DNA from: Gemmatimonadota bacterium
GTDB taxonomy: Bacteria > Gemmatimonadota > Gemmatimonadetes > Palauibacterales > KS3-K002
Assembly (NCBI GenBank): GCA_039589115.1
Contig: JBDHHZ010000011.1
Coordinates: 1-49,567, forward strand
DNA: 49,567 bases
Direction: 5' to 3'
The translations under genes were made by a program, and so were the position numbers. Shown here piece after piece: positions 114-46,359 of this stretch (the first letter of the stretch is position 1; the number at the start of each line of letters is the position of its first letter). The notes below the pieces were generated by a model that worked only from the letters and a program-made list of their open reading frames with translations, was not told the origin of the DNA and ran no database searches.

Positions 114-482
114 ATGCTAATCATCGTTGCCCATGGAAGCCGCGATCCGAAGTGGCGGGTTTCGGTCGAGAGCCTGACCGAATCGCTGCAGGCTGATCTC
201 GGCCCGGATAACCTGCGGCTCGCCTACATGGATGGTGGGCCTCCGACGCTCGATGACGTCGTGTCCGAGGCGGTCCAGACGGGAGTGACACGCATGCGAG
301 TGCTGCCGCTGTTCCTCGCCAACGAGGGGCATGTGGATCGCGACATTCGCCCCGTGGTCGATCAGCTGAGCAGCATCCATCGGTCTGTGGAAGTCGAGCT
401 ACTGCCCGCCGTGGGCCAGCACCGGTTGTTCCGGGAGCTGCTTGCCAAGATCGCCGAAGAGGAGTCCGAGTCTAACGCATGA
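114..482 (+). CDS. cbiX: Small CbiX/SirB-type sirohydrochlorin chelatase
   Basis: ORF 54..482. MLIIVAHGSRD and LPLFLANEGHVDRDI resemble the His-containing motifs of class II chelatases (CbiX/SirB). ATG at 114 follows GAGG. The stop overlaps the next start (ATGA at 479-482). A start at 54 cannot be excluded. Confidence 0.7.
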   Translation: MLIIVAHGSRDPKWRVSVESLTESLQADLGPDNLRLAYMDGGPPTLDDVVSEAVQTGVTRMRVLPLFLANEGHVDRDIRPVVDQLSSIHRSVEVELLPAVGQHRLFRELLAKIAEEESESNA

Positions 483-2029: not shown

Positions 2030-2704
2030 TCACCCGGAGAGCGCGCGCCGCACCAGCGCGCCAACGCTGGTGCGCTCGAGCGATCCGTCTTCGTAGAGAG
2101 CGACGGGCCCCTCGTCGGAAAGCAGTTCCGACCGGTCTGCCAGGATCACCGCCTGCCCCACCTGACCCAGACACCAGACGGCCGTGCCCCGGACCTGAGG
2201 GTCAGGATCGTCCAGCGCCGACGCCACTGCCGTGTGGAGTTCCGTGAAGTAGTCTCCCGCAAGAGAGCCGAGTCGTCCTATGGCCCACAGGGCATCGGCC
2301 CTGAAATGGTCCAGGTCTTCCTCGGCCATGTTCGGGATGAGGAAGATGACGATGGGGACGTAGTCGGCAAACAGCTTCGGTTCGTGGCGAACGATCTCCG
2401 CCATCGCCGCCGGGGCATGCCAGCAGATGCCGCCGGACTCCTCACTGATCAGCCAATACAGGCGCCGCAAGTGCTCCCGCACGTAGTCGGGATCGAATTC
2501 GGAGACGCGCCGAGCCGCCACTCCCAACGCCTCGACCGCTCGCCAACCGATCTGCGGGTCCGCATCGTAGGTGAGCGACACGAGGCTTGCCAGGACGCGC
2601 CGCTTCTCGGCGGCCAGCTCGGCGATTCGCTCGAATTGCCCCTCGGCGAGCGCCTCGCGCAGGATTGTCTTGATAGGCACGTGCGCGCCTAGTGCATCTC
2701 CCAC
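2030..2704 (-). CDS. HEAT/armadillo-repeat protein of unknown function, last gene of a DsrMK-like module
   Basis: ORF 2030..2704. Helical-repeat composition with HEAT-like repeats (IGWRAVEALGV, ADALWAIGRLG, DPDPQVRGTAVWCLGQVG). The start overlaps the stop of the upstream HdrD-like gene. No catalytic motif recognised. Confidence 0.5.
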   Translation of the reverse strand: MGDALGAHVPIKTILREALAEGQFERIAELAAEKRRVLASLVSLTYDADPQIGWRAVEALGVAARRVSEFDPDYVREHLRRLYWLISEESGGICWHAPAAMAEIVRHEPKLFADYVPIVIFLIPNMAEEDLDHFRADALWAIGRLGSLAGDYFTELHTAVASALDDPDPQVRGTAVWCLGQVGQAVILADRSELLSDEGPVALYEDGSLERTSVGALVRRALSG

Positions 2705-4299
2705 TTGATGAACGGCTCTTTGACATCCACCATCGCGTTGACGATCAGCTCCACGAGACCGCCGTAGGTGATGTTGCTCTTCTCCAGAACGTCATAGTAC
2801 TGCAGCAGGTCGCGAAGCTGACCCTTGCAGTTGGAGCACGGCGCGCAGAGGTACTTCTTGACCTCCGGTCCCGGCTGGTCAGCGAACGCGTCGAGGATCT
2901 GCTTCATTTTCACTCGGCTGCCGACACTTATGCGCCAGTCCGCGAAGTTGTTGGGCGACATTACGGCGAACCCGCTTCCGCCGCCACAGCAGTAGTTGTC
3001 CACCCCGTGCGGTGTCATCTCCCGGAACTGCGGGCACAAGTACCGCAGGATACGCCGTTGTGGTTCCACGATCCCCAGGTTGCGGACGATGTTGCACGGG
3101 TCGTGTAGAGTCACCGGGAAGTCGTTCTTGGACGGGTCGAACTCGATCTTCCCACTGAATACGATCTCCTCCAGCAGCGGCAGGCAGCTCTCACGGGCCA
3201 CAGCCAAGTCACCCGTAAGGACACGATCCGAGATGGTCATCAAGGCCTTGTGCTGATGCCCGCACTCGCCGGCGACGATCTTGTTCACCTTAAGCTTCTT
3301 GGCCGCCTCGGCGTGCTTGACTGTCACGCGAGCCAGCTGGACGTCATCGTAGAACAGGCCGTAGTTGACACCGTCATAGCCAAGCCCATCCGAGGATAAG
3401 GTCCAATCGATGCCCGCCGCGTTCAGGATGATGGCAAATGCCCCGGGATTCTCGGGCCAGGCCAGAATCTCCCCGGCGTTGTGGATCAGCAGGACGTCCG
3501 CGCCTTCCTTGTCCCACGGGGTCTCCACCTTTATGCCCGTCTCGTCTTCCATGTCCTCGTCGATGAACTCGATGTTGTCCTTCACGACCACGGCGTTCAT
3601 GCCCGTTGACGAGCCCACCTCAAGCTGGAGAACGGTACCCTTCTCGTGCAGCTCCTTGGGAGCCCAACCCAGCTCCTGACTGAACAGCTTCCGCAACTCG
3701 CGACTGATCAGGCCGTTGTCGAGCCCGATGGGACAGGCTTGAGCGCAGCGCCGGCACAGCGTGCAGCGGTAGCAGAGCTCGTACAGCCGAGTGATAGTGG
3801 TCCAGTTGAGCTCGATGTCACCGTGGGTGAACCTGGCGAACAGCTTTCCACCCGGCTTGGCGTACTTGGCGACCAGCCTCCGCAATACCTCGGCGCGGTA
3901 GGTCGGCCGGTAGATCTCCTTGCGGCCGCTCGCCGTGAAGACGGGACATGCGTCGTTACAACTCTGACAGTTCACGCAGTAGTCCAGCGAGAGCAGCAGC
4001 GGCTGCAAGAACGTCCAGTTGTTGTTCTTCTCGAGCAACTTCTTCAGGCCGGCACGGAACTTCTCGACGTATTCCTCTTCCTCGGCTGCGTCCGTCGGCT
4101 TGGGGATACTCAACCCGATGACGCCGTCCAGGTTGCAGACAAGGCGCTCCTTGGTCTCGGGACTGAGCTCCTTCCAGGCCGGCTCGTGCTCAGGGTTATC
4201 GTAGGGAGGTGGGAGGGGCGCGAGGTCCTCGGGTCCCACGGGACACAGCACCTCGTCTCCCCGCTTGCTGATGTCTATCACGCGTAGCTTGGTGCTCAC
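2689..4299 (-). CDS. HdrD/DsrK-like CCG-domain iron-sulfur oxidoreductase (module a)
   Basis: ORF 2689..4371 trimmed to the GTG at 4299 (GAGGAG upstream; GTGA overlap with the stop of the membrane gene). Two 4Fe-4S motifs (CVNCQSCNDACP, CYRCTLCRRCAQACP) are followed by CCG-type Cys-rich motifs (HDPCNIVRN, NYCCGGGSG, CAPCSNC). Confidence 0.8.
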   Translation of the reverse strand: MSTKLRVIDISKRGDEVLCPVGPEDLAPLPPPYDNPEHEPAWKELSPETKERLVCNLDGVIGLSIPKPTDAAEEEEYVEKFRAGLKKLLEKNNNWTFLQPLLLSLDYCVNCQSCNDACPVFTASGRKEIYRPTYRAEVLRRLVAKYAKPGGKLFARFTHGDIELNWTTITRLYELCYRCTLCRRCAQACPIGLDNGLISRELRKLFSQELGWAPKELHEKGTVLQLEVGSSTGMNAVVVKDNIEFIDEDMEDETGIKVETPWDKEGADVLLIHNAGEILAWPENPGAFAIILNAAGIDWTLSSDGLGYDGVNYGLFYDDVQLARVTVKHAEAAKKLKVNKIVAGECGHQHKALMTISDRVLTGDLAVARESCLPLLEEIVFSGKIEFDPSKNDFPVTLHDPCNIVRNLGIVEPQRRILRYLCPQFREMTPHGVDNYCCGGGSGFAVMSPNNFADWRISVGSRVKMKQILDAFADQPGPEVKKYLCAPCSNCKGQLRDLLQYYDVLEKSNITYGGLVELIVNAMVDVKEPFIKWEMH

Positions 4300-5210
4300 G
4301 TCTTCATCTCCTCGGTTGCAACATCCACCCAGTTCTTTCTTCCGTCGGACTTCACGTGGGGCCCTGCCCACGTCACGGGCTGATTCAGGAGCCGGACGGC
4401 CTCCCGCTCCAGCCGCCCGCCCGCAGCCAGCGGCTCATCGTCCCAGCGGACCTGGTGGTACGTGAAGTACTTCGCAACGAAGTGCATCATCCGGCTGAAG
4501 GGCAGATAGGCCAGAAACAGCAGGGCCAGCAGAACATGCACGGCCAGTATGCCAGGAAGCACGACTGAAAAATCAGCGGTCAGCAGAGCTACGGCGAAAC
4601 CCGTTACCTGCCCGGCAAAAGCCTGCGAGGCCGCAAGGGCTAGCGCGCCGCTAGCGAACACGGCTAGCAGGAGGACCAGGTTGAACAGGGCCGCCGGTGT
4701 CGTATAGGCCCGGAGCCGCGGATCGGCGAAACGGCTGCCGAGCAGTCCCAGCGCCCCGATGCCGCCCAGCGCGAAGCCAACTCCGGCGAGCAGCGATACA
4801 GCATCGCGCCAGGCGCCCGAGCCCGCGCTCTCCACTCCGGCCAACTGCAGCCCGCCACCGAGCAGCAGCACGGCAGCGGCCGCTATCAACACGTACATGC
4901 CGATATGGAACGGGAAAGAGAACCACCACAGTCGGCGATTGTGCTCCCACACACTCTTGAGGAACACGATTTCCTGGAACATGAAGAACAACTCGTTGAG
5001 CCGGTCCTTCTCACGCGGCTTCGTCCACCACTCGTACTCCTCGAGGTACGAGCCGCCGTAATGGCTCTTGCCCTTCTCGTGTGGCACCGGGGCGAGCTCC
5101 CAGCGGAGATGCACCGGAAGCCTCGCTATCCTCAAAGTTCTGAGCACGAACGCCACAATGAACACCGCCAACAACGCCCACGACATCACTATCAGTATGG
5201 ATCCGGACAT
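4296..5210 (-). CDS. NarI/DsrM-like integral membrane cytochrome b subunit (module a)
   Basis: ORF 4296..5210. Multiple hydrophobic helices and a C-terminal YLPFSRMMHF motif, as in NarI/DsrM/HdrE-type quinol-interacting subunits. The start directly abuts the stop of the MerR-like gene (TAAATG). Confidence 0.7.
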   Translation of the reverse strand: MSGSILIVMSWALLAVFIVAFVLRTLRIARLPVHLRWELAPVPHEKGKSHYGGSYLEEYEWWTKPREKDRLNELFFMFQEIVFLKSVWEHNRRLWWFSFPFHIGMYVLIAAAAVLLLGGGLQLAGVESAGSGAWRDAVSLLAGVGFALGGIGALGLLGSRFADPRLRAYTTPAALFNLVLLLAVFASGALALAASQAFAGQVTGFAVALLTADFSVVLPGILAVHVLLALLFLAYLPFSRMMHFVAKYFTYHQVRWDDEPLAAGGRLEREAVRLLNQPVTWAGPHVKSDGRKNWVDVATEEMKT

Positions 5211-5732
5211 TTAAGCCTCTTCCTCCGTCGAGTATCTCTTCCGCTGCATGAGCTCCTGGATGGCTGCACCCGCATCCTGCACGTCGTTCTCGTCATGCAG
5301 CAGCTGTTTGATGTCTTCGGTGCACAACGAACCGAATCGGTACACGGCGCAACCCCGGCACTCGTTCCCCTGCGGGGCGCAGTCGAGGCCCTTGATCATC
5401 CAGCACGGCCGCGTGCTGTCCTCATAGGCGGGACAGCTCCTGCGGGTCTCCGCCGTGCACGGGAGTAGATCCCAGCACGGCAGCAGCGCCTGCACCCTGT
5501 GAATTCCCTCTATGTTGAGTCCTAGGTCCTGGATCAGATGCTGGATGTTACGGACGCGGCTGATGTCCTCATGCGAGAACAGGCGGTGGCCCGAGGGAGT
5601 GCGGTGGGCGATGATGAGGCCCTCGTTCTCGTATTTCCGCACGGCGGAAACGGAAAGCCCCACCCGTTGTGCCAGAACGCCGATGGAGATTAGCGGGTCT
5701 TCGATTTCGTGATGCGCTGGTGCGTCGGGCAC
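5211..5732 (-). CDS. MerR-family HTH regulator with C-terminal 8-Cys domain
   Basis: The N-terminus ISIGVLAQRVGLSVSAVRKYENEGLI..HR..SGHRLF is a MerR-type HTH. The C-terminal stretch PCWDLLPCTAETRRSCPAYEDSTRPCWMIKGLDCAPQGNECRGCAVYRFGSLC holds 8 Cys in about 55 aa. Confidence 0.75.
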   Translation of the reverse strand: MPDAPAHHEIEDPLISIGVLAQRVGLSVSAVRKYENEGLIIAHRTPSGHRLFSHEDISRVRNIQHLIQDLGLNIEGIHRVQALLPCWDLLPCTAETRRSCPAYEDSTRPCWMIKGLDCAPQGNECRGCAVYRFGSLCTEDIKQLLHDENDVQDAGAAIQELMQRKRYSTEEEA

Positions 5733-5932: not shown

Positions 5933-6325
5933 TCAGCCGATCAGCTCTCTGACCTTGCGCACCAACTGCTCAGCGTCGACGGGCTTGCTGATGTACCCCT
6001 CGGGTGGGGGGACCTGTCGGCGGCTGGAGATGAACCTTTCGAACTCTTCGGAGATGCCTGTGATGATGATGACGGGAACGCTCTTGAGTCGTTCGTCTTC
6101 CTTCAGCTTCCGATAGACGGCCACGCCGGACTTCTCGGGCATGGAGATGTCGAGTGCGACGAGGTCGGGCACATCCTGCTCGAGCGCCGCGATGGCTTCG
6201 ACGCCATCATTGGCGGTCGTGGTCATGAAGCCGTTGTCCTGCAACACGGTGGTGAGATACTCCCGAGCATCGGGATCATCATCCACGACCAGAACGGTCT
6301 TGGCGTCGTCAGTCATTATCCGCAT
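5933..6325 (-). CDS. Stand-alone response-regulator receiver protein
   Basis: ORF 5933..6466 trimmed to MRIMTDDAKTVLVVDDD (ATG at 6325; ATG at 6316 also possible). REC motifs present: VVDDD, LVALDISMP, IIITG, SKPV. The start overlaps the 3' end of the upstream kinase gene. Confidence 0.85.
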   Translation of the reverse strand: MRIMTDDAKTVLVVDDDPDAREYLTTVLQDNGFMTTTANDGVEAIAALEQDVPDLVALDISMPEKSGVAVYRKLKEDERLKSVPVIIITGISEEFERFISSRRQVPPPEGYISKPVDAEQLVRKVRELIG

Positions 6326-7769
6326 CCATTTCAGACGTGTTGGATTCCTCCGACTCCTGCGTCGGAGGCCGCTTGCGGGGCAGCTTAACGATGAACCGCG
6401 TTCCGGCACCGGAGTCCGACTCCAGTTCGATGGTGCCGCCGTGAGAACGCGCGATGCGATCGGCAACGAAGAGCCCCAGCCCGGTGCCCTCCATTCCCTT
6501 TGAGGAGAAGAACATCGTGAATGCCTTCTCCCGGGTTTCCTGGTCCATCCCGATGCCGTTGTCCTCGACTTCGTACTGGACGACGTCGGGGAGTCCCTGA
6601 AGCCGCACGGCTACGATGTGTTCGGGCTTCTTCCCGTCCAGCCGGCAGGCGTCCAGGGAGTTCTCGACCAGGTTCACAAGTAGCGAACGGACCGCCTGCG
6701 CATCACCCTCGAAGTCGCCGGCGGCCGTGTCGAGCTCGGTGGTCAGCTGTATCCCCTGATCTTTGGCCCGCGACTCCATGAGACCGCAAACATCCTGGGC
6801 GACTTCCATGGCGGACAGGCGCTCCCACATGGGGACGCGATCCTTCGCATAGTAGAGGATGTCCGAGACCATGCTCTGGATGCGGGCGACGTTTCGATGG
6901 ACCGTCGCCCAGCCCTTGTCGATGCGCGTCCGATCCTCTTTAGCGAACCCGGAATCGACAAGATACATGCCGCCGGCCAGCCCGTTGAGCAGACCTTTCA
7001 GGCCGTGCGACACCGAACCGACCAACAGGCCCAGCGACGTGAGGCGGTCCTCCAGCTCGCGGACCTGGGTGATGTTGGCGCTCATCTCCATCACGCCGGT
7101 GATTCGACCCTGCCGATCTCGGATGGGAGCGGCCGTCACGAGCACGTTCTGGTGCCGGCCATCGAGCGACGTGACCACCTCTTCCCGAGTATGCGGCTCG
7201 CCGTCCTCGAAGGTCTCCTGGACCGGGCAGGGGACACACGGTTCTGAGCGATGCTTGTAGATCTCGAAGCACTTGCGGCCGAGGCAGTCACCGAAGTCTT
7301 CCTGGAAGGCGCGGTTGGCCTCCACGATGTTCAAGTCGAGGTCTTGAATCGAGATGTAACAGGGCACCACGTCGAACAGGAGGTGGTAGCGACGTTGGCT
7401 CCGCCGCAGTTGACGCTCCAGGTCCCTCATGTCGGTGATGTCGGTGGACATCTCCATGACGGCCACGACCTTGCCGCTCTCGTCGCGGATCGGCGTGGCG
7501 TCTACCAGCACCGAGATCTCCCGCCCGTCCAGGCTCGTGACTCGCTCTTTGCTGCGGTGGCTCTGCCCATCGTGGAACGCTTCGGCGACCGGACAAGTCT
7601 CACACCGCTCGGAGCGCTGCTTGTAGACCTGATAGCAGAACCGGCCGTCGATATCGCCGAAATCCGTCCGGAATCGCGCGTTCGCATCGATGATCCGGAA
7701 GTCGCGGTCCTGCACCGTGAGGTAGCACGGCAGCGTGTCGAAATAGACTTGGTAGTCGTTATTCATCAC
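6309..7769 (-). CDS. Cytoplasmic PAS-PAS sensor histidine kinase, each PAS with 4 conserved Cys
   Basis: No TM segment seen. Two PAS-like repeats carry the same Cys pattern (LPCYL..RFCYQVYKQRSERCETCP and VPCYI..RKCFEIYKHRSEPCVPCP). H-box SVSHGLKG, N-box LVENSLDAC, G-boxes DNGIGMD and GTGLGL. Confidence 0.85.
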   Translation of the reverse strand: MMNNDYQVYFDTLPCYLTVQDRDFRIIDANARFRTDFGDIDGRFCYQVYKQRSERCETCPVAEAFHDGQSHRSKERVTSLDGREISVLVDATPIRDESGKVVAVMEMSTDITDMRDLERQLRRSQRRYHLLFDVVPCYISIQDLDLNIVEANRAFQEDFGDCLGRKCFEIYKHRSEPCVPCPVQETFEDGEPHTREEVVTSLDGRHQNVLVTAAPIRDRQGRITGVMEMSANITQVRELEDRLTSLGLLVGSVSHGLKGLLNGLAGGMYLVDSGFAKEDRTRIDKGWATVHRNVARIQSMVSDILYYAKDRVPMWERLSAMEVAQDVCGLMESRAKDQGIQLTTELDTAAGDFEGDAQAVRSLLVNLVENSLDACRLDGKKPEHIVAVRLQGLPDVVQYEVEDNGIGMDQETREKAFTMFFSSKGMEGTGLGLFVADRIARSHGGTIELESDSGAGTRFIVKLPRKRPPTQESEESNTSEMDADND

Positions 7770-7829: not shown

Positions 7830-9605
7830 TCAAGGCGTGCTCTCATCTCCGGCTGCTGACTCGTCGTGGGCCAGCTCCAGGATCCTGCGAACCGTGCTCA
7901 CGAGGGCCTCTTCGGTAACCGGCTTGTCCATATAGCCCTCGGGCTTCCTGACGGAGCGGTCATAGATCAGCTTGCGCAGCTCGGGTCTACCGGTGATCAC
8001 GCAGACCTTCAAGCTCTCAAGCTCCGGATCCTTGCGCAGAATCTCGTACACCTCGCCGACGTTTCTGCCGGGCATTTCGAGGTCGAGCGTCAACAGGTCT
8101 GGCTTCTCGCTACAGGCCATCGCCAGGGCCTCGTCGCCATTAGTGGCCCGCAGCACCGTGGCACCGTTATCCTCGAAGACCGTCGCCAGGTACTCGAGCT
8201 GATCGGGCTCGTCGTCGGCTACTAGCAATGTACGGCCGGCCAGCGGCAGCGCCTCGGCAACCACCTCTACCACCTCCTCGACTGGAATCGCCACCTTCGG
8301 CTCGATAACGAGGGCGTTCGCCACCAGGTTGACCAGCTGCGAAACCTCGATACCCAACTCGTAGTGCCTGATAACGTCAGTCAGGCCGTCGACACAGTTG
8401 TGACACGACGTGACGACGATCTCGGCGCCGGTCTCCTTCAGCTGGTTCGCCTTGATGACGCCCGACTTGAGCCGCCGCCCCGTGTACTCCGACATCGACA
8501 TAGCACCACCACCGCCCGTGCAACAGTAGTTCTCGGCGCGGTTCGGATACATCTCGCGAAAGTCGCTACACACCAACTGGAGCAGCTCGCGGGGCTCCTC
8601 GAACAGGCCGCAACTGCGGCCCATGTTGCAGGAGTCGTGATAAGTGACGGGCCTGGAGTTGCGGCTCTTGTCCACCTTGATCCGCCCTTCCTTGATGTAG
8701 CGGAGCATGGTGAAGATAGAACTCTCCATTACGAAAGGCACGTCGTACTTGGCCCAGTTGGGGCCCTCGCAGCGAGTCGATCGGTAGCCGTGGCCGCACT
8801 CCGAAATGACGAGCTGCTTTCCGCGAAGCTCGACCACCTTCTCGTACAGCCGCTGGGCGACGGAGCCGCCCAGATCGTCGTCGCCGGAGAACAGCCCGAA
8901 GTTGGTCATGTCCCAGCCCTCGCTGGCCATGGTCCACTTCTCTCCGGCCATGTGGAAGATCTTGGCCGCGTCCGCGATGGTGCGCGGGTCGTACTTCACC
9001 TCGCGCGGGTTGATGGAGTAGACCACATCGCAGTCGAACTGGTCGATCGGAATATCGGCCTCCGGGTCGTCCAGCTCGTCCTGCATCTCCTCCGCCATCC
9101 ACTCGAGCGTGTCTAGGTACTCCTCTTTGAGCACGCCCATCTGGTTGCCTATCTCCCACTGGTCCTTGCTGACGACGGCCACGCCTTCGGGCATGACCCC
9201 GACCGAGACAAGGAGACCCCGCGCCATCCGGTTGAACGTGGCCAAATCGACGCCCATCGGGCAGTTCAGGGAGCAACGCCGGCAATTGGTGCACTTGCCG
9301 AACACGGTATCCTTCAATTCCTCCAATTCCTCATCGGTCCAGACGCTGCCGGCCTTCACCCACCAGGGGAACACCCGACCCGTCCAATCGAAATGGCGCT
9401 TGAACAGCTTGCGGACCAGGTCGCCTTTGTATGCGGGGGCATAGGTCGGGTCGCCGGGATTGGCCAGGACGTAGTGACAGGACTCGGTACACAGGCCGCA
9501 GTGCACACAGGCCAGCAGCGAGCCCGCCATCTGCCGGTTCAGCTTCTGGCCCATCCGCTCGAGGACCTTCTCAGCCTTCAGGGATCTAGTATTCGCGTTG
9601 CTCAT
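7830..9605 (-). CDS. HdrD/DsrK-like CCG-domain iron-sulfur protein fused to a C-terminal receiver (REC) domain (module b)
   Basis: The N-terminal part has 2x4Fe-4S motifs (CVHCGLCTESCH, CTNCRRCSLNCPMG) and CCG motifs (YHDSCNMGRSCG, NYCCTGGGGA, TSCHNC). The last ~125 aa (about 7833-8210) form a complete REC: LLVADDEPD, LLTLDLEMPG, VCVITG, MDKPV. Confidence 0.8.
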   Translation of the reverse strand: MSNANTRSLKAEKVLERMGQKLNRQMAGSLLACVHCGLCTESCHYVLANPGDPTYAPAYKGDLVRKLFKRHFDWTGRVFPWWVKAGSVWTDEELEELKDTVFGKCTNCRRCSLNCPMGVDLATFNRMARGLLVSVGVMPEGVAVVSKDQWEIGNQMGVLKEEYLDTLEWMAEEMQDELDDPEADIPIDQFDCDVVYSINPREVKYDPRTIADAAKIFHMAGEKWTMASEGWDMTNFGLFSGDDDLGGSVAQRLYEKVVELRGKQLVISECGHGYRSTRCEGPNWAKYDVPFVMESSIFTMLRYIKEGRIKVDKSRNSRPVTYHDSCNMGRSCGLFEEPRELLQLVCSDFREMYPNRAENYCCTGGGGAMSMSEYTGRRLKSGVIKANQLKETGAEIVVTSCHNCVDGLTDVIRHYELGIEVSQLVNLVANALVIEPKVAIPVEEVVEVVAEALPLAGRTLLVADDEPDQLEYLATVFEDNGATVLRATNGDEALAMACSEKPDLLTLDLEMPGRNVGEVYEILRKDPELESLKVCVITGRPELRKLIYDRSVRKPEGYMDKPVTEEALVSTVRRILELAHDESAAGDESTP

Positions 9606-9644: not shown

Positions 9645-10313
9645 CTATCCACGCCGGACCGGGTATACTCCCCGGTAACCCATGGTTTTGCCCAGGTAAT
9701 AGCGCGTGAAGGGGTAGTAGAGGTAGTGGGATATCTTGCTGAACGGCACATAGACCAGGAAGAAGGCCGTCAGGATGAAATAGCCCAGCAGGTGCCACTC
9801 GCCGCCGGCGATCTGGTTCGGCACCGCCAGCACCGCGAAGAAGAACCACGTCGTCAGCAGCACCAGCGAGAAGTAGTCGTCCGGCGAGCTGATCGCACGC
9901 ATATACGGACTGCCGACCCGCCGGATGATTCTGATCACCCCGACCAGGAAGGCCGCGCCGATCACGATCTGCAGGATCAGCACGACGGCTCGACTCTCGA
10001 GCAGGCCCGGCCAGTACGGGATGACGAACGATAGGGCGATGGCGGCGGTCACCCCGATGTGGAACGCCGCGAACTGGACATAGATCAAGTAGTGCCGTCG
10101 TGTGCTCTCCATCGCCCAGGGCATGGCGATATTCGCCCAAGAATACAGGATGCCCTTGGCCGGGGTGGTGTTCGGCGGACCGGTCGCCGCCTGGCGCTCG
10201 CCGCCGGCCTTGAAGCCGAAGAGCCATAGGATGCGGATCGTATAGACCAGGGCCATGAATCCCAGGGCGACCTCTTGCAGCGTATGCTCGGAGAAGTGTA
10301 GCAGCTCGCTCAT
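9645..10313 (-). CDS. NarI/DsrM-like integral membrane cytochrome b subunit (module b)
   Basis: Hydrophobic multi-helix protein ending in VYVPFSKISHYLYYPF, comparable to the YFPFSKLAHM of the canonical DsrM in this window. The start overlaps the macro-domain stop (ATGA). Confidence 0.7.
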   Translation of the reverse strand: MSELLHFSEHTLQEVALGFMALVYTIRILWLFGFKAGGERQAATGPPNTTPAKGILYSWANIAMPWAMESTRRHYLIYVQFAAFHIGVTAAIALSFVIPYWPGLLESRAVVLILQIVIGAAFLVGVIRIIRRVGSPYMRAISSPDDYFSLVLLTTWFFFAVLAVPNQIAGGEWHLLGYFILTAFFLVYVPFSKISHYLYYPFTRYYLGKTMGYRGVYPVRRG

Positions 10314-10852
10314 GGCGTATTCTCTATTTGGGCCTTGAAAGCGTCGTATTGGCTAGTGTCCAACACGCAGATGACGACTTCCTTGATTGCGGTCTCACCC
10401 TCCAAGTGACCCCTGATCACTTCGAGCATCACCCGGGCACAAAGACCCGGCGCGATCCCGTAATACCCCGCACCCATAGCCGGAAAGGCGATCCGCCCGA
10501 CAGCTATCTCCTCGGCGCGTTTCAGGGAGTTGAGAACCGTCGTTCGCAGCTTGCCTTGCGTATCCTCTTCCTGAAACCGGGGGCCGACTGCGTGGATGAT
10601 GTGCTGGGCTTTGAGGTTCCCTGCCGCGGAGACCACAGCCTCGCCGTTTGCGACCGGGCCCAGCTGCTCCAGTTCCTTCTGGACCGTGGGCCCGCCTCGC
10701 ACGGAGATCGCCCCTCCGAATCCCGTACCGAGAGCCAGATCGGGCTGGGCGTAGAACACGAAGGCGTCAACGTCGAGGTCTGTGATGTCGTCTTTGATGA
10801 GGCGTAAGACGCTCTGATTTATCTGTAAGCCCTCCTCAACTGCCTTGGTCAC
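10310..10852 (-). CDS. Macro-domain protein (ADP-ribose binding / de-ADP-ribosylating family)
   Basis: ORF 10310..10891 trimmed to the GTG at 10852, which follows a strong SD (GGGAGGG, 4-nt spacer). Macro-like motifs: LIKDDITDLDVDAFV, GFGGAI, IIHAVGPRF, IAFPAMGAGYYG. Confidence 0.7.
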   Translation of the reverse strand: MTKAVEEGLQINQSVLRLIKDDITDLDVDAFVFYAQPDLALGTGFGGAISVRGGPTVQKELEQLGPVANGEAVVSAAGNLKAQHIIHAVGPRFQEEDTQGKLRTTVLNSLKRAEEIAVGRIAFPAMGAGYYGIAPGLCARVMLEVIRGHLEGETAIKEVVICVLDTSQYDAFKAQIENTP

Positions 10853-10968
10853 TGCGCCCTCCCTTTTGCTTTGCGGAGTCCAACCTCGCACCGTATGCCT
10901 TCGAGACCCTCCGACTTCCCCGAATCACCTTCGAAACTCTCCGACCGGCGTTCTCCGGGTTCCACATC

Positions 10969-11616
10969 TCATCCATAGAACGGCAAGCCCGCCACCCGGC
11001 ACGCCCCCCGCCGATACCCGGCCGGAAATAGCTCTCGCAGCTCATCGAGGCTCAGGTCGTTGGCGGAGCAAGCCTCGTAGACTGTCGGGAGCATTCGGTT
11101 GGCGACGTAGTAGTCGCGCAAGTAACGCACGATCTGCAGGTGCCTCTCCGTCGTCACGACCGGCGGTTCCCTCTGCGACATGGCCAGCTCGACGAAGTCT
11201 TCATCCCACTCCTCGAAGTTCTCGAGGAATCCCAATTCGTCCAGTCCATAGCGCGGCTTTGCGGGAGGCGCAGTCTCGTACGTGAGCCAGTAGTTCGTCT
11301 CCCACATGAACTTGTAGTTGATGCCGGCGACCTTGCAGGCGCCCCGATGGTATCCGGTAGGAAACAGCGAGCGCAGCTCCGAGAGCCGCATGTGATTGTC
11401 CGCGCACGCCATGACGAGCACCGGCACGGTGTTCTCGTCGAGGAACTTGTGCCGCAGATAATTGATGAGCTGCCAGTGCCGTTCCGTGAGCCCCGACGCA
11501 ACCCCCACCAGCTTCGCCATTCCTTCGGCGAAGTCCTCTTCCCACTGCTCCGGCGGGTCCAAGAACCCGTAGGCGTCCAGCTGGTAGGTCTTGCCCTTGA
11601 ACGCTACTGAACTCAT
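10969..11616 (-). CDS. Tandem (two-domain) DsrC/TusE-like protein lacking the C-terminal CysA
   Basis: Two DsrC-family repeats in one 215-aa ORF. Repeat 1 ends ...LFPTGYHRGACKVAGINYKF and repeat 2 ends ...LFPAGYRRGACRVAGLPFYG-stop. Both keep the GAC(K/R)VAG position (CysB) but lack the terminal PKPTGCV arm of the canonical DsrC at 27754..28071. Confidence 0.8.
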   Translation of the reverse strand: MSSVAFKGKTYQLDAYGFLDPPEQWEEDFAEGMAKLVGVASGLTERHWQLINYLRHKFLDENTVPVLVMACADNHMRLSELRSLFPTGYHRGACKVAGINYKFMWETNYWLTYETAPPAKPRYGLDELGFLENFEEWDEDFVELAMSQREPPVVTTERHLQIVRYLRDYYVANRMLPTVYEACSANDLSLDELRELFPAGYRRGACRVAGLPFYG

Positions 11617-11692: not shown

Positions 11693-12484
11693 CTATGCAG
11701 CGTCGCCCGCCGCTCTGCGACTGGCGCCCGCAACGCTATCGACTAGCTGTTCGATCTGCTCTGCCGTCAGAGGGGCACTCAGGGTGGGCGCGGAGAGTTG
11801 CCCTACGACCTCTTCGTCCACCGCACGACGTGCCACAAAGACCTTCACCCCGGGAATTCGGTCATCCCGGATGATGGACTCCAACAGGCTGCCGTCGCTC
11901 ACCTCAGGCAGCTCGCTATCCAGCACCACCACGGCGGGGCGAAACGTCCCGATCAGCGTGGAGCTTTCATACCCAGATCGGGCGAACTGCAGGGAGACCC
12001 TGTCCGCGTCCGTGTCTTTCTCGAGCCGGCGGGTCAATGCCTCGTCCCGAGTGATCACCAAAACGGTCATCGCCATGCCGTGACAGGCCCTATAAAACGG
12101 GCAGTCCAAGCAATCAGTCTTGCAGAAGTCATGCCTGTGCCCGGCCTCCCTCCCCAGTTCGGCCAGCCTGTAGCAGTACTGTGCCCGGGCCTGGTAGACC
12201 AGGCAATTCCGGCAGCTTTCGGGTGGAGCGCCCGGCTGCCCGAAGTACTCCCAACAGCGCTGTGGGACTCCATCCCCGTTCCCTCGATCGGCGGTCGCGC
12301 CAACAGGATCCTCGCCGTTCGAGTCGCAAAGACCCAGGGCAGTACAGGCCTCTCGAGAGACCCGGTAGTGTCCACCGGCGGTGCGGGTCGCCGGCAGCCT
12401 GCCCTTCTTGATCCACTTCAGCACGGCGTCTGGTGTGACGCCGCAGAGCTTGGCCACCTCGCCTGTACTGAGCATAGAACCCAT
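11693..12484 (-). CDS. Excisionase/MerR-superfamily HTH regulator with central 8-Cys domain and C-terminal receiver-like domain (paralogue 1)
   Basis: ORF 11693..12553 trimmed to ATG 12484 (MGSMLSTGEVAKLCGVTPDAVLKWIKKGRL..GGHYRV); the trim is supported by the putative promoter at 12544-12572. Cys block RCWEYF..SCRNCLVYQ..YCY..FCKTDCLDCPFYRAC. Receiver-like tail VLVITRDE..VVVLDSE. Confidence 0.7.
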   Translation of the reverse strand: MGSMLSTGEVAKLCGVTPDAVLKWIKKGRLPATRTAGGHYRVSREACTALGLCDSNGEDPVGATADRGNGDGVPQRCWEYFGQPGAPPESCRNCLVYQARAQYCYRLAELGREAGHRHDFCKTDCLDCPFYRACHGMAMTVLVITRDEALTRRLEKDTDADRVSLQFARSGYESSTLIGTFRPAVVVLDSELPEVSDGSLLESIIRDDRIPGVKVFVARRAVDEEVVGQLSAPTLSAPLTAEQIEQLVDSVAGASRRAAGDAA

Positions 12485-12543
12485 AATGCAAATTCGATGG
12501 TTTATGGATTTTCTTGACATCTCGCATAAATCGCCTGCTGAGA

Positions 12544-12572
12544 ATTCTACCAAAATTTGGCGGTTCTGTCAA
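12544..12572 (-). promoter_or_regulatory. Putative sigma70-type promoter for regulator paralogue 1 (TTGACA-N17-TAGAAT)
   Basis: The minus strand reads TTGACA (12572-12567), a 17-nt spacer, then TAGAAT (12549-12544). This sits about 60 bp upstream of the ATG at 12484. The -35 is embedded in the 9-bp repeat TTCTTGACA, which recurs inverted at 12511-12519. Confidence 0.4.
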
Positions 12573-12697: not shown

Positions 12698-12726
12698 TTG
12701 ACTCCTGAGAGCCGCGTATGTATTTT
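12698..12726 (+). promoter_or_regulatory. Putative sigma70-type promoter for regulator paralogue 2 (TTGACT-N17-TATTTT)
   Basis: TTGACT at 12698-12703, a 17-nt spacer, TATTTT at 12721-12726, about 55 bp upstream of the ATG at 12781. Preceded by TTTTCTTG (12686-12693), a motif shared with the divergent promoter. Confidence 0.35.
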
Positions 12727-12780
12727 ATGCAATCAGGGTGGTCGGGAAATGCGGTACCCCATAAAAGCCATACCTGCGCC

Positions 12781-13590
12781 ATGAAGCAGCAGAAAGACGG
12801 TACCTGGCTAACCACCGGGCAAGCTGCCAGGCTTTGCTCGGTCACTTCCGATACTGTCCTCAAGTGGATAAAGAAGGGGTCGCTCAAGGCCGTGCGCACG
12901 GCGGGCGGCCACTATCGCATCAGACGCCAGGAGCTCGCACCCCTCCTCACGTTAGGCCGGACCTCGCGGATTTTCCCGGACAGGACGAGCAGCGCGCCGC
13001 AGCAGTTGCGGTGTTGGGAGTACTTCAGCCGCGGAGGCGCCATCAGGGAAGAATGCGAGGCGTGCGCGGTCTACCGCGCGCGGGCTTCGCGGTGCTTCCG
13101 GATGGCGACGATGGGACCTGACATCGGCCACGCTCGTCAATTCTGCCAGACATCCTGCGACGATTGTGTCTACTTCCAGCGGCTGAGCGGACAGCCGACA
13201 AAGGTGCTCGTTGTCACGTCGGACTCTGATCTCGTTCAGCGGCTGAAGAGTCATGAGTCAGAGGGGATGGAGTTGCGCTTCGCGCGGAACGCCTACGAAG
13301 CCTCGGCTGTGGTGCAGGCTTTCCTGCCGGGCTTCGCGGTGGTCGACCAGGACGCGTTTCCGGGCGGTGACTACGGACTGCTGGAGAACCTGGCGAACGA
13401 CCCCCGCCTTCCGGGTCTGAAGATCATCGTAGCGGTGCAGCGCGGTGAGGATCAGCGACTGGGCAACTTACAGGATGGACATTTCGTATCTCGAGTGATT
13501 GAAAAGCCGTTCGGTTCGGAGGAGATCGCGGCCGTGATCGACGGTTTTCCGGTGGGATCGGTTGAGATGGAGAGATTGGGCAACGTCTGA
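12781..13590 (+). CDS. Excisionase/MerR-superfamily HTH regulator with central 7-Cys domain and C-terminal receiver-like domain (paralogue 2)
   Basis: ORF 12718..13590 trimmed to ATG 12781 (MKQQKDGTWLTTGQAARLCSVTSDTVLKWIKKGSL..GGHYRI). Cys block RCWEYF..ECEACAVYR..RCF..FCQTSCDDCVYFQ. Receiver-like tail VLVVTSDSD..FAVVDQD..EKPF. Confidence 0.7.
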   Translation: MKQQKDGTWLTTGQAARLCSVTSDTVLKWIKKGSLKAVRTAGGHYRIRRQELAPLLTLGRTSRIFPDRTSSAPQQLRCWEYFSRGGAIREECEACAVYRARASRCFRMATMGPDIGHARQFCQTSCDDCVYFQRLSGQPTKVLVVTSDSDLVQRLKSHESEGMELRFARNAYEASAVVQAFLPGFAVVDQDAFPGGDYGLLENLANDPRLPGLKIIVAVQRGEDQRLGNLQDGHFVSRVIEKPFGSEEIAAVIDGFPVGSVEMERLGNV

Positions 13591-13604: not shown

Positions 13605-13922
13605 GTGAGCCCAGTGAATCGGGAAGTTTTAGAAGCCAGTAGCGATGAGGACGGGTTCCTCAAGGCTATGGCGAACTGGGATCGAGCGACGGCCGAGACC
13701 CTCGCCGAGCTGCACAATATCGGTGAGCTCACGGACGAGCACTGGATGGTGATCGAGTTCGTGCAAGAGTATTACGCGACCTACGGCACAGGGCCGCCGG
13801 TGGTGAAGGTGCACAAGGAGACCGGGCTGACGTCGGAAGAGATCTGCCAGCTGTTCCCTTGCGGCATGGTGAAGGGGGCATACCGGCTAGCCGGACTCCC
13901 ACGCCCGCCCGGCTGCGCCTGA
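13605..13922 (+). CDS. DsrC/TusE-like protein with CysA only (CysB replaced by Tyr, extra Cys upstream)
   Basis: 105-aa DsrC-family ORF with a GTG start. The C-terminus LFPCGMVKGAYRLAGLPRPPGCA compares with the canonical LFPSGPAKGACKVAGLPKPTGCV at 27754..28071. Confidence 0.8.
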   Translation: MSPVNREVLEASSDEDGFLKAMANWDRATAETLAELHNIGELTDEHWMVIEFVQEYYATYGTGPPVVKVHKETGLTSEEICQLFPCGMVKGAYRLAGLPRPPGCA

Positions 13923-14681: not shown

Positions 14682-14694
14682 GGCGGAGGCGAGG

Positions 14695-23305: not shown

Positions 23306-23335
23306 TACGGTCTCCCGTTTCCGTGCGGGACAGCT

Positions 23336-24128: not shown

Positions 24129-24131
24129 CGG

Positions 24132-46319: not shown

Positions 46320-46359
46320 GGAGTGGGAATAGCGGGATTCTGCTGAGTCAATATCGGTC

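What the first reader, a model, noticed from the sequence alone, without database searches (positions are those of the whole stretch)
7830..9605. Receiver domain fused to the C-terminus of a DsrK/HdrD-type CCG iron-sulfur protein
Seen: one uninterrupted 591-aa ORF. Residues 1 to about 450 carry two 4Fe-4S motifs and two CCG-type Cys-rich regions. After a short linker (IPVEEVVEVVAEALPLAG), the last ~125 aa are a receiver with every canonical position present: DD pocket in LLVADDEPD, acceptor Asp in LTLDLEMPG, Thr in VITG, Lys in DKPV. Its tail motif KPEGYMDKPV closely resembles PPEGYISKPV in the stand-alone receiver at 5933-6325, suggesting both are served by the same kinase.

Inference: phosphorylation could switch a catalytic heterodisulfide-reductase-like subunit on or off, which would be post-translational control of respiratory sulfur chemistry. 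Alternatively the Fe-S/CCG part is the output or sensor of a phosphorelay.
Basis: partly seen in the sequence, partly recalled or inferred. Interest (0 to 1): 0.8.

Follow-up and report, generated by a model that had tools for sequence, protein, structure and literature searches.

The report
Receiver-tagged DsrK-like iron-sulfur redox subunit
A membrane-associated iron-sulfur enzyme subunit of the kind used in sulfur respiration carries a working-looking two-component "receiver" switch on a flexible tether, and it always sits next to its membrane anchor and a cysteine-rich sensor kinase in many uncultured bacterial phyla; this suggests an undescribed way of wiring phospho-signalling directly to a quinone-linked redox enzyme.

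Summary
Window 7830-9605 (minus strand) is one 591-aa ORF. It holds two 4Fe-4S motifs, the DsrK/HmcF/TmcB-type SECGH cysteine, one complete CCG motif, a flexible Ala/Pro/Glu/Val linker and a canonical receiver. It is not a frameshift artefact. At least 79 species-level genomes from about 10 phyla, and hundreds of metagenomic protein clusters, encode the same full-length fusion at 50-93% identity. D464, D465 and D508 are invariant in all 85 sequences aligned, and T/S538 and K561 are nearly so.

The gene belongs to a conserved cassette: Macro protein (69/71 loci), shortened NarI/DsrM-like membrane protein (77/77), CCG-REC, soluble double-PAS histidine kinase with invariant Cys-rich motifs (69/69), and a paralogous stand-alone receiver (55/67). 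Where the free receiver is missing, the fused one is the only receiver in the operon.

The cassette lies in dsr/apr/sat islands in several lineages, including this window, but most loci show no dsr genes within 10 kb. The nearest non-receiver relatives carry DsrC at the same C-terminal position.

Best reading: a two-component-controlled DsrMK-like quinol:(DsrC-like) disulfide oxidoreductase. This is uncharacterised, and I rate it a new variant of a known kind. The direction of signalling is inferred, not shown.

The parts
7830..9605 (-). Full CCG-REC gene (591 aa): an HmcF/TmcB/DsrK-like iron-sulfur subunit with a C-terminal receiver
   Evidence: ORF list and translation. Pfam and NCBIfam domains. 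AF2 mean pLDDT 91.1. Orthologs in 84 non-redundant loci.
9477..9509 (-). First [4Fe-4S] motif, C33-x2-C36-x2-C39-x3-C43
   Evidence: Translation. All four Cys are conserved in 85/85 sequences.
9258..9293 (-). Second [4Fe-4S] motif, C105-x2-C108-x2-C111-x3-C115-P116
   Evidence: Translation. Conserved in 85/85 sequences.
8769..8804 (-). SECGHG...C279: remnant of the first CCG motif, holding the candidate catalytic cysteine C270 (T/GECGH motif of DsrK, HmcF and TmcB)
   Evidence: C270 and C279 are conserved in 85/85 sequences, and S268 and H272 are invariant in the 10-sequence alignment A2. The motif is described in PMC10861901.
8394..8630 (-). Complete CCG motif (C326, C332, C361, C362, C401, C404): predicted site of the noncubane [4Fe-4S] cluster
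   Evidence: Pfam CCG at 320-404, E = 5.5e-12. All these Cys are conserved in 85/85 sequences.
8235..8300 (-). Flexible linker rich in Ala, Pro, Glu and Val (residues about 436-457)
   Evidence: AF2 pLDDT below 50 for residues 442-450. Its length varies from 13 to 71 aa among 85 orthologs.
7866..8234 (-). Receiver domain (residues 458-580). Acceptor Asp D508 is at 8082-8084, with acidic pair D464/D465, T538, Y558 and K561
   Evidence: Pfam PF00072, 56.7 bits. Alignments to solved receivers and to CheY. D464, D465 and D508 in 85/85, T/S538 in 84/84, K561 in 83/84. Foldseek receiver hits.
9645..10313 (-). Membrane partner (222 aa): a shortened NarI/DsrM/HmcE-like protein whose gene ends 39 nt upstream of the CCG-REC start
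   Evidence: Weak NCBIfam hits to HmcE and TmcC, about 44 bits. It aligns to the three DsrM paralogs of the window, with H85 and H196 invariant. It lies directly upstream in 77/77 eligible loci.
10310..10891 (-). Macro-domain protein; its stop codon overlaps the start of the membrane-protein gene
   Evidence: Pfam Macro, E = 4e-22. Hits to solved macrodomains. Present upstream in 69/71 loci. The MacroD catalytic Asn and Asp positions are replaced in all 73 orthologs.
6309..7769 (-). Soluble histidine kinase with two PAS domains, each carrying a C...C-x10-C-x2-C pattern; phospho-acceptor H255
   Evidence: Pfam PAS_4 twice plus HATPase_c. Kinase cores in the PDB match it. C45, C56, C59, C137, C167, C178, C181 and H255 are 100% conserved in 75 orthologs. 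It lies directly downstream in 69/69 loci.
5933..6325 (-). Stand-alone receiver, a paralog of the fused one. The start is probably the ATG at 6316, which gives the 127 aa seen in L001; the gene overlaps the 3' end of the kinase gene
   Evidence: Pfam PF00072, 83 bits. 43% identity to the fused receiver, E = 4e-30. DNA read. Present in 55/67 loci.
10969..11616 (-). Tandem DsrC-like protein (two DsrC domains, CysB only, no C-terminal CysA). An accessory gene found in some lineages only
   Evidence: Pfam DsrC with two stretches. Translation. Similar genes occur in 11 of 84 loci.
11693..12553 (-). HTH_17/MerR-type regulator with a Cys-rich middle region, at the head of the operon. A sigma70-like promoter match lies at 12572-12544
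   Evidence: Pfam. Translation. Promoter scan, a consensus match only. A regulator of this kind lies within 2.1 kb upstream in 30/61 loci.
2689..5732 (-). Frequently linked second module: Cys-rich MerR (5211-5732), DsrM-like (4296-5210) and DsrK-like (2689-4371)
   Evidence: Pfam and NCBIfam. A DsrK' ortholog above 55% identity lies within the flanks of 24/84 loci. The same order is seen in L001 and L005.

Best explanation
The gene encodes the cytoplasmic catalytic subunit of a two-subunit, DsrMK/HmcEF-type membrane redox module. The adjacent 222-aa NarI-like protein would anchor it to the membrane and link it to the quinone pool. The two 4Fe-4S clusters would relay electrons to the noncubane CCG cluster and the ECGH cysteine, where a protein or small-molecule disulfide or trisulfide is processed. 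In this organism the likeliest substrate is a DsrC-family protein.

A genuine receiver hangs on a flexible 13-71-residue tether at the C-terminus. The soluble double-PAS kinase encoded immediately downstream probably senses redox state, O2 or metal through its Cys-rich PAS domains. It would phosphorylate D508 and also the paralogous free receiver. Phosphorylation would then switch the enzyme, by docking or undocking of the receiver on the catalytic face or by receiver-mediated dimerisation. On this reading the protein is an enzyme-output response regulator with inverted domain order, and it gates electron flow between quinol and cytoplasmic thiol/disulfide chemistry.

Shown here: the architecture, the conservation of catalytic and phospho-acceptor residues, the flexible tether, the invariant operon partners and the paralogy of the two receivers. 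Inferred: the substrate, heme binding, phosphotransfer from this kinase, and the direction and effect of the switch.
For: - Intact catalytic signature. Two Fe-S motifs, the SECGH cysteine and all CCG cysteines are conserved in 85/85 sequences. These are the features that define DsrK, HmcF and TmcB (PMC10861901).
- Fold. The AF2 model (pLDDT 91.1) matches M. smegmatis EtfD best (E = 2.7e-16) and also HdrB.
- Membrane partner in 77/77 loci, with two His that are invariant here and in the DsrM paralogs.
- Receiver chemistry is fully conserved.
- A kinase follows directly in 69/69 loci, with H255 invariant.
- In 12 of 67 loci, for example Ignavibacteria L028 and Zixibacteria L027, no free receiver follows the kinase, so the fused receiver is the only receiver in the operon. 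This argues that it is the kinase's terminal target.
- The fused and free receivers are 43% identical and have similar alpha1 helices. The unrelated REC-REC protein of the window differs there.
- DsrC link. The nearest non-receiver relatives (43% identity) carry DsrC at the same C-terminal position and sit beside a NarI-like gene and a further DsrC gene. A tandem DsrC-like gene lies in this operon. The cassette lies in dsr/sat/apr islands in Gemmatimonadota, Ignavibacteria, Zixibacteria, Syntrophaceae and the divergent P0284 branch.
Against: - There is no experimental datum of any kind; all homologs come from uncultured MAGs or metagenomes.
- The tools gave no coordinates or PAE for the model, so its inter-domain geometry could not be inspected. 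pTM is 0.72 and the linker is disordered, so no docking mode is supported.
- The membrane protein keeps only two invariant His and lacks a helix relative to DsrM. Heme content and quinone coupling are therefore uncertain.
- Most loci lack DsrC or dsr genes nearby, so the general substrate is unknown.
- The near-universal Macro protein has no place in this model.
- A C-terminal receiver could equally be a phosphate sink or an input.
Confidence: 0.5

Rival explanations
1. Sensor or sink model. The membrane-protein/CCG complex is not the output but the input. Its redox state, set by the quinone pool or a thiol/disulfide couple, changes how readily the tethered receiver accepts or loses phosphate. 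The fused receiver thereby competes with the free receiver for the kinase, and the free receiver, or the Cys-rich MerR/HTH regulators, carries the output.
For: Two paralogous receivers with similar alpha1 helices flank one kinase. The kinase H-box reads SHGLKG, without the E/D-x-x-T/N motif that I recall as needed for phosphatase activity (the motif rule is my own knowledge), so a sink would be useful. Cys-rich MerR/HTH regulators lie next to the cassette in 30/61 loci. An Fe-S-dependent receiver is known in FixT (PMC7078487, listed).
Against: The free receiver is absent from 12 of 67 loci, which leaves no downstream partner in the operon. The catalytic ECGH cysteine and the whole CCG motif are invariant and the CCG part averages 82% identity across phyla, which fits a working enzyme better than a mere reporter. 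No Hpt domain or DNA-binding response regulator is conserved in the cassette.
Confidence: 0.3
2. Structural or scaffold model. The receiver is mainly a docking module that holds the kinase, the free receiver or the Macro protein at the membrane complex, and phosphorylation plays little or no regulatory part.
For: The long tether of variable length suits a recruitment domain. One very divergent fragment, P0221, has Ala at the acceptor position and lacks the Thr, so a phosphorylation-independent form can exist.
Against: D464, D465 and D508 are conserved in 85/85 sequences, T/S538 in 84/84 and K561 in 83/84. That degree of conservation of the phospho-chemistry is not expected of a pure scaffold. 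A kinase is always adjacent.
Confidence: 0.08
3. Artefact. Two separate genes, a CCG protein and a receiver, were joined by a sequencing or assembly error around 8235-8300.
For: None found.
Against: The same uninterrupted architecture appears in independent assemblies: 120/120 and 119/120 protein clusters and 79 full-length genome loci, including complete chromosomes CP070812.1 and CP070666.1.
Confidence: 0.01

Closest known systems
DsrMK module of DsrMKJOP (menadiol:DsrC-trisulfide oxidoreductase; PMC10861901)
   Same: A NarI-type membrane protein paired with a cytoplasmic subunit that has two 4Fe-4S motifs, one CCG motif and the xECGH cysteine. It is encoded in a dsr island here, and DsrC-family genes lie in the operon.
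   Different: The DsrK model scores 250 bits against a cut-off of 400. A true DsrMKJOP is encoded elsewhere in the window at 22145-27155. This membrane partner is shorter and keeps two invariant His, not four. It carries a C-terminal receiver and has a dedicated kinase. It also occurs in genomes with no nearby dsr genes.
HmcEF of the Hmc complex and TmcBC of the Tmc complex (Desulfovibrio)
   Same: These are the best-scoring curated families for the CCG part (HmcF 332 bits, TmcB 311 bits) and for the membrane part (HmcE and TmcC, about 44 bits). They too have a single CCG motif plus the T/GECGH cysteine.
   Different: The scores are far below the cut-offs (750, 735, 275 and 240). No HmcA- or TmcA-like cytochrome c gene or other Hmc/Tmc subunit is adjacent. 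A receiver is fused.
HdrED heterodisulfide reductase of methanogens
   Same: Membrane cytochrome b plus a CCG iron-sulfur catalytic subunit. The HdrB fold matches the model.
   Different: HdrD has two complete CCG motifs, whereas this protein has one. HdrD has no receiver.
Mycobacterial EtfD (PDB 9ojn)
   Same: It is the best solved-structure relative by sequence (E = 2e-19) and by fold (E = 2.7e-16). It also combines a membrane cytochrome b part with an HdrD-like part.
   Different: In EtfD the membrane and soluble parts are one polypeptide, and its abstract describes it as coupling beta-oxidation to the respiratory chain rather than reducing a disulfide. Identity is 19%. It has no receiver.
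Enzyme-output response regulators such as CheB, PleD and RpfG (my own knowledge)
   Same: A canonical receiver is covalently linked to a catalytic domain and is served by a cognate kinase encoded alongside.
   Different: In those proteins the receiver is N-terminal and the output is a hydrolase or cyclase. Here the receiver is C-terminal, on a long flexible tether, and the partner domain is a multi-cluster respiratory-type redox subunit bound to a membrane protein.
CCG-DsrC fusion proteins of Chloroflexota/Dehalococcoidia (uncharacterised)
   Same: They are the closest non-receiver relatives (43% identity). They have the same CCG core and a NarI-like gene directly upstream, and the extra domain sits at the same C-terminal position.
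   Different: The appended domain is DsrC, a substrate or carrier, rather than a receiver. There is no kinase in the locus (L086).
FixT, an Fe-S-binding single-domain receiver (PMC7078487; known to me only from the title and abstract listed)
   Same: It links a receiver fold to iron-sulfur chemistry within a two-component system.
   Different: In FixT the cluster sits on the receiver itself and gives feedback control of the signalling system. Here the clusters are in a separate 440-residue enzyme domain.

Membership tests
Response regulator receiver domain (PF00072) | Profile match above the curated threshold | tested here: met
   56.7 bits against a gathering score of 30.2, covering profile positions 2-110 of 111.
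Response regulator receiver domain (PF00072) | Acidic pair, phospho-acceptor Asp, Thr/Ser, aromatic switch residue and Lys at the canonical positions | tested here: met
   D464, D465, D508, T538, Y558 and K561 align to CheY D12, D13, D57, T87, Y106 and K109. Conservation across 85 orthologs: 85/85, 85/85, 85/85, 84/84, 83/84 and 83/84.
Response regulator receiver domain (PF00072) | (beta-alpha)5 fold | tested here: met
   The AF2 secondary structure for residues 459-586 alternates E and H five times. Foldseek hits to Spo0F, RR468, DivK and CheY have target TM-scores of 0.84-0.90.
Response regulator receiver domain (PF00072) | Phosphorylation by a cognate histidine kinase | not testable with these tools
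   Context only: a kinase with invariant H255 lies directly downstream in 69/69 loci.
DsrK/HmcF/TmcB-type CCG proteins (HdrD-like, single CCG) | Two canonical CX2CX2CX3C [4Fe-4S] motifs | tested here: met
   Residues 33-43 and 105-115, invariant in 85 sequences.
DsrK/HmcF/TmcB-type CCG proteins (HdrD-like, single CCG) | One five-cysteine CCG motif, CXnCCGXnCX2C | tested here: met
   C326...C361C362(T)G...C401xxC404. Pfam CCG E = 5.5e-12. Invariant in 85 sequences. The motif is defined in PMC10861901.
DsrK/HmcF/TmcB-type CCG proteins (HdrD-like, single CCG) | Conserved cysteine in a T/GECGH motif | tested here: met
   S268-E-C270-G-H272. C270 is conserved in 85/85 sequences, and the motif is invariant in the 10-sequence alignment A2. 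Ser replaces Thr or Gly.
DsrK/HmcF/TmcB-type CCG proteins (HdrD-like, single CCG) | Adjacent NarI-family membrane cytochrome b partner | tested here: inconclusive
   A homologous membrane protein is always adjacent (77/77 loci) and aligns to DsrM paralogs. Only H85 and H196 are invariant and one helix is missing. Heme binding was not tested.
DsrK (NCBIfam NF045796 equivalog) | Score at or above the curated cut-off of 400 bits | tested here: not met
   250.4 bits. The window's true DsrK (24505-26172) scores 711 bits.
HmcF (NF045711) and TmcB (NF045724) equivalogs | Score at or above the cut-offs of 750 and 735 bits | tested here: not met
   332.1 and 311.2 bits.
HmcF (NF045711) and TmcB (NF045724) equivalogs | Co-encoded multiheme cytochrome c subunit (HmcA or TmcA) | tested here: not met
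   Nothing of this kind appears among the cassette genes here or in L001-L005, L087 or L089.
HdrD (methanogen heterodisulfide reductase subunit) | Two complete CCG motifs | tested here: not met
   One Pfam CCG stretch only. The first site is reduced to SECGH...C279.
DVU0259-type single-domain response regulators (NF045717) | Score at or above the curated cut-off of 160 bits | tested here: not met
   This is the best-scoring receiver family for both receivers, but it is below the cut-off: 72.4 bits for the fused receiver and 104.3 bits for the free one.
Hybrid histidine kinase or phosphorelay component | HisKA/HATPase or Hpt domain in the same polypeptide | tested here: not met
   No such domain in the 591-aa protein.

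The most novel reading that the evidence does not exclude
His-Asp phosphotransfer directly gates a quinone-linked, DsrK-like membrane redox enzyme. This would be a widespread and previously unrecognised class of two-component output, in which a signalling kinase switches respiratory-type electron flow to DsrC-like or other disulfide acceptors post-translationally rather than through transcription. The conserved non-catalytic Macro protein would add a nucleotide (ADP-ribose-type) input.
Probability: 0.4. Interest if true: 0.85.

Novelty: new variant of a known kind. Interest (0 to 1): 0.72.

Why it matters
DsrMK-, HmcEF- and HdrED-type modules are core energy-conserving machinery of anaerobes, and they are generally described as regulated at the level of transcription. 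A receiver tethered to the catalytic subunit, together with a dedicated Cys-rich PAS kinase, is conserved at 72-91% identity across Gemmatimonadota, Planctomycetota, Acidobacteriota, Zixibacteria, Ignavibacteria, Desulfobacterota and other phyla. That would mean fast phospho-dependent control, or sensing, of electron flow between the quinone pool and cytoplasmic thiol/disulfide chemistry.

It would give a function to a large family that is currently annotated only as 'response regulator' or 'Fe-S oxidoreductase/CheY-like'. It would offer a handle on the poorly understood extra DsrMK paralogs and DsrC-like proteins found in newly discovered sulfur-cycling lineages. It would also add an unusual output type and domain order to the catalogue of response regulators.

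Tried and rejected
- **Frameshift or assembly artefact.** Rejected: the architecture recurs in independent assemblies and complete genomes.
- **Pseudo-receiver.** Rejected for this protein and its 84 orthologs. Only the very divergent fragment P0221 lacks the acceptor Asp.
- **Membership of DsrK, HmcF or TmcB proper.** Rejected on curated cut-offs and on the missing cytochrome c partners.
- **HdrD.** Rejected, because there is only one CCG motif.
- **A device specific to sulfur respiration.** Rejected as a general statement, because most loci have no dsr genes within 10 kb. The link to sulfur islands does recur in several phyla.
- **Phosphorelay.** No Hpt domain was found in the cassette.
- **Literature.** Eight searches found no paper that describes a CCG/DsrK/HdrD-receiver fusion, and none that mentions DVU0259. 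The library misses most subscription journals, so absence is not proven.
- **Domain docking from AF2.** This could not be obtained. The tool returns no PAE or coordinates, and the linker is disordered.
- **Receiver-like C-termini of the HTH_17 regulators.** They stay below threshold (E = 0.016 and 0.09), so no claim is made.
- **The 84-aa ORF after dsrB.** It gave no DsrD Pfam hit.
Full report

Window 7830-9605 holds one uninterrupted ORF of 591 codons with an ATG start. Pfam places a 4Fe-4S dicluster domain at residues 30-119, one CCG domain at 320-404 and a Response_reg domain at 461-572 (56.7 bits against a gathering score of 30.2).

The sequence shows two CX2CX2CX3C motifs (C33-C43, and C105-C115 followed by P116). 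It also shows a SECGHG...C279 stretch and a complete CCG motif (C326, C332, C361-C362, C401xxC404). According to the DsrMKJOP paper (PMC10861901), that is the normal state of DsrK, HmcF and TmcB: one CCG motif plus a strictly conserved cysteine in a T/GECGH motif.

**2. Is the receiver canonical?**

Solved receivers align over residues 458-580. Aligned with CheY, D464/D465/D508/T538/Y558/K561 take the places of D12/D13/D57/T87/Y106/K109.

An AlphaFold2 model built on a 67-sequence alignment has mean pLDDT 91.1. It gives a well-folded N-terminal body (residues 1-440), a linker with pLDDT below 50 (442-450) and a (beta-alpha)5 domain (459-586). Foldseek matches the body best to M. smegmatis EtfD (E = 2.7e-16), and also to HdrB chains. 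It matches the tail to Spo0F, RR468, DivK and CheY with target TM-scores near 0.9.

**3. Is the fusion an artefact?**

No.
- In the 5.8-billion-protein collection, the 120 best hits (78-100% identity) all carry both PF02754 and PF00072.
- A second search seeded with a 51%-identical representative gave 119 of 120 with both domains.
- In the species-representative genome collection, 429 stretches encode a relative. Of the best 80 (71-91% identity), 79 match through residue 562 or beyond; the exception is cut by a contig end.
- These come from Gemmatimonadota (19), Zixibacteria (11), Ignavibacteria (9), Planctomycetota (8), Deltaproteobacteria/Syntrophaceae (6), Acidobacteriota (5), Calditrichota, Fibrobacterota, Pseudomonadota and unclassified MAGs. 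The divergent branch adds Kapabacteria and a cluster labelled Armatimonadetes.
- Two are complete chromosomes.
- Every source is a MAG or a metagenome. The names given are only 'response regulator' or 'Fe-S oxidoreductase/CheY-like'.

**4. Conservation**

Across 85 aligned sequences (the window protein and 84 orthologs), all eight Fe-S cysteines are invariant, as are C270, C279 and the six CCG-region cysteines. In the receiver, D464, D465 and D508 are found in 85/85 sequences, T/S538 in 84/84, K561 in 83/84 and Y/F558 in 83/84.

The CCG body averages 82.5% identity to the window protein across phyla, and the receiver averages 65%. Median identities of the neighbouring genes are lower: Macro 54.5%, membrane protein 69.8%, kinase 58.8% and free receiver 50.8%. 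The linker varies from 13 to 71 residues and is rich in Ala, Pro, Glu and Val. This fits the disordered stretch in the model and suggests a swinging tether rather than a fixed interface.

**5. The surroundings: a conserved cassette**

On the minus strand the order is:
- HTH_17/MerR regulator (11693-12553)
- tandem DsrC-like protein (10969-11616)
- Macro protein (10310-10891)
- 222-aa membrane protein (9645-10313)
- CCG-REC (7830-9605)
- double-PAS histidine kinase (6309-7769)
- stand-alone receiver (5933-6325)
- Cys-rich MerR (5211-5732), DsrM-like (4296-5210) and DsrK-like (2689-4371)

The Macro and membrane-protein genes overlap. The membrane-protein gene ends 39 nt before the CCG-REC start. 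The 3' end of the kinase gene overlaps the start of the receiver gene.

I ran tblastn with the window proteins against 84 non-redundant loci. Counts are for loci with enough flanking DNA:
- membrane protein directly upstream: 77/77
- Macro protein upstream: 69/71
- kinase directly downstream: 69/69
- free receiver after the kinase: 55/67

The loci without a free receiver are mostly Ignavibacteria and Zixibacteria. In L027 and L028 I checked that the cassette ends with the kinase. There the fused receiver is the only receiver in the operon.

The 52-57%-identity branch keeps the core: membrane protein, CCG-REC, kinase and receiver in a Kapabacteria MAG (L087), and membrane protein, CCG-REC and kinase in a Deltaproteobacteria MAG (L089).

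**6. The partners**

*Membrane protein.* It scores only about 44 bits against HmcE and TmcC. It aligns with the three DsrM-like paralogs of the window, shares the PFSKxxH motif and shares two invariant histidines (H85, H196). It lacks one helix and the other two heme-ligand positions. It may therefore bind one heme rather than two; this was not tested.

*Kinase.* It has no detected transmembrane part. Each PAS domain has a C...C-x10-C-x2-C pattern. C45, C56, C59, C137, C167, C178 and C181 are 100% conserved, C15 is 76% conserved, and H255 is invariant. This suggests a metal or Fe-S site, which is an inference.

*The two receivers.* They are 43% identical (E = 4e-30). They share the alpha1 sequence (PDQLEYLATVFEDNG versus PDAREYLTTVLQDNG) and a two-residue insertion before PEGYxxKP. 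The window's unrelated REC-REC protein has neither. Both score best against the DVU0259-type family but below its cut-off.

**7. Relation to sulfur metabolism**

The window is a complete dissimilatory sulfur island. It encodes Sat, an AprA-like flavoprotein (FAD_binding_2 and fumarate-reductase C-terminal domains), three Qmo-like genes (assigned from Pfam domains and position only), DsrMK(J)OP, DsrAB, a DsrL-like protein, a DsrN-like protein, canonical DsrC and siroheme biosynthesis genes. Only Sat, DsrA, DsrB, DsrM, DsrK, DsrO and DsrP pass curated family cut-offs.

The cassette also lies near dsrAB or sat/apr in Ignavibacteria, Zixibacteria, Syntrophaceae and the P0284 branch. Yet DsrAB is within 10 kb in only 7 of 58 eligible loci. 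Planctomycetota, a second Gemmatimonadota chromosome, the Kapabacteria locus and L089 show unrelated neighbours. The cassette is therefore a portable module that is recurrently, but not obligatorily, linked to sulfur islands.

A useful hint about the substrate comes from the closest non-receiver relatives (43% identity; Chloroflexota/Dehalococcoidia). They carry a DsrC domain at the same C-terminal position. They sit between a NarI-like gene and a further DsrC gene, with no kinase nearby.

**8. How it most likely works**

*Shown.* The protein has an intact DsrK-type catalytic signature, a canonical conserved receiver on a flexible tether, an obligatory membrane partner and an obligatory adjacent kinase.

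*Inferred.* The two subunits form a DsrMK-like quinol-linked oxidoreductase that acts on a DsrC-like or other disulfide/trisulfide. The kinase phosphorylates D508, and phosphorylation switches the enzyme by docking or by dimerisation.

I favour 'enzyme as output' (confidence 0.5) for two reasons. Some lineages have no other receiver in the operon, and the catalytic residues are under extreme constraint. The main rival (0.3) is that the redox module sets the phosphorylation behaviour of its receiver and so acts as a sensor or phosphate sink for the free receiver. The kinase H-box (SHGLKG) lacks the E/D-x-x-T/N motif that I recall as needed for phosphatase activity, and that would fit a sink. 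A pure scaffold role (0.08) is unlikely given the conserved phospho-chemistry. An artefact is excluded.

The near-universal Macro protein is unexplained. Its orthologs replace the MacroD NAAN and GGGVD catalytic positions with [FY]YA[QR] and GSGFG but keep the glycine-rich loops (the reading of these motifs rests on my own knowledge). It may be a nucleotide-binding component rather than a hydrolase.

**9. Comparison with what is known, and novelty**

The protein works like DsrK, HmcF or TmcB, but it fails the curated equivalog cut-offs of all three (250, 332 and 311 bits against 400, 750 and 735). No HmcA- or TmcA-like cytochrome c gene is present in the cassette. It is not HdrD, which has two CCG motifs. 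Its best structural relative, EtfD, is a single-chain enzyme with a different physiological partner.

Response regulators with enzyme outputs are well known, but I know of none whose partner domain is a respiratory-type multi-cluster subunit. Eight full-text searches found no description of such a fusion. The library is incomplete, so this does not prove absence.

I rate the finding a new variant of a known kind: real, widespread, conserved and uncharacterised. Interest is 0.72.

Noticed in passing
window 6309-7769 (-): Each of the kinase's two PAS domains has a C...C-x10-C-x2-C pattern. C45, C56, C59, C137, C167, C178 and C181 are 100% conserved in 75 orthologs, and C15 is 76% conserved. This suggests an Fe-S or metal-binding PAS sensor. 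The H-box reads SHGLKG and lacks an E/D-x-x-T/N motif.
   Followed up: partly
window 10310-10891 (-): The Macro-domain protein is present in 69/71 cassettes. In all 73 orthologs the MacroD-type NAAN and GGGVD positions read [FY]YA[QR] and GSGFG, while the glycine loops are kept. It is probably a nucleotide binder rather than a hydrolase. Its role in the cassette is unexplained.
   Followed up: partly
window 10969-11616 (-), 13605-13922 (+), 27754-28071 (-): The window has three DsrC-family genes with complementary cysteine patterns. The tandem DsrC-like protein has CysB only (GACKVAG, and GACRVAGLPFYG at the end). A 105-aa DsrC-like protein has CysA only (GAYRLAGLPRPPGCA). The canonical DsrC has both (GACKVAGLPKPTGCV).
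   Followed up: partly
window 5211-5732 (-), 11693-12553 (-), 12718-13590 (+): Three MerR/HTH_17 regulators have Cys-rich regions. The two HTH_17 paralogs are divergently transcribed and have sub-threshold receiver-like C-termini (Pfam E = 0.016 and 0.09). They may be redox-sensing transcription factors of the cassette. A regulator of this kind lies upstream of CCG-REC in 30/61 loci.
   Followed up: partly
window 2689-5210 (-), 13962-16026 (+), 22145-27155 (-): Besides the canonical DsrMK(J)OP (DsrK scores 711 bits), the window encodes two further DsrMK-like pairs that score below the DsrK cut-off (332 and 369 bits). That makes four NarI-like/CCG modules in 27 kb.
   Followed up: partly
L086 (Dehalococcoidia CP070667.1) and proteins P0130, P0390-P0469: A sister family of CCG proteins has a C-terminal DsrC domain (about 80 clusters, Chloroflexota). 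They are encoded between a NarI-like gene and a further DsrC gene. One member, P0434, also has N-terminal GAF domains.
   Followed up: partly
protein P0221 (230-aa fragment, 37% identity): A very divergent CCG-REC fragment has Ala at the acceptor-Asp position and lacks the conserved Thr. A pseudo-receiver variant of the fusion therefore exists.
   Followed up: no
window 7830-9605 against L006-L085: The CCG body is unusually conserved across phyla (mean 82.5% identity, minimum 75.6%), more so than its operon neighbours or the receiver. This implies very strong constraint, recent horizontal spread, or both.
   Followed up: partly
window 19485-19739 (-): An 84-aa ORF lies directly after dsrB, in the position usually taken by dsrD. 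It has no significant Pfam hit.
   Followed up: partly
window 479-2002 (+), 38778-40985 (-): Two fused tetrapyrrole-biosynthesis genes flank the sulfur island: a tetrapyrrole methylase joined to HemD, and a ferrochelatase joined to the N-terminal domain of glutamyl-tRNA reductase.
   Followed up: no
window 45393-48120 (+): A second, unrelated two-component pair: a protein with two receiver domains (308 aa) followed by a dCache-HisKA-HATPase kinase (586 aa).
   Followed up: no
L088 (JGI 3300025837 contig, P0284 branch): In the divergent (~52% identity) branch the cassette again sits in a sulfur island: DsrA/B-like, DsrM'K', receiver, HTH_17, membrane protein, CCG-REC, kinase, then Sat, AprB and AprA. 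There is no Macro gene, and the free receiver sits after DsrK'.
   Followed up: partly
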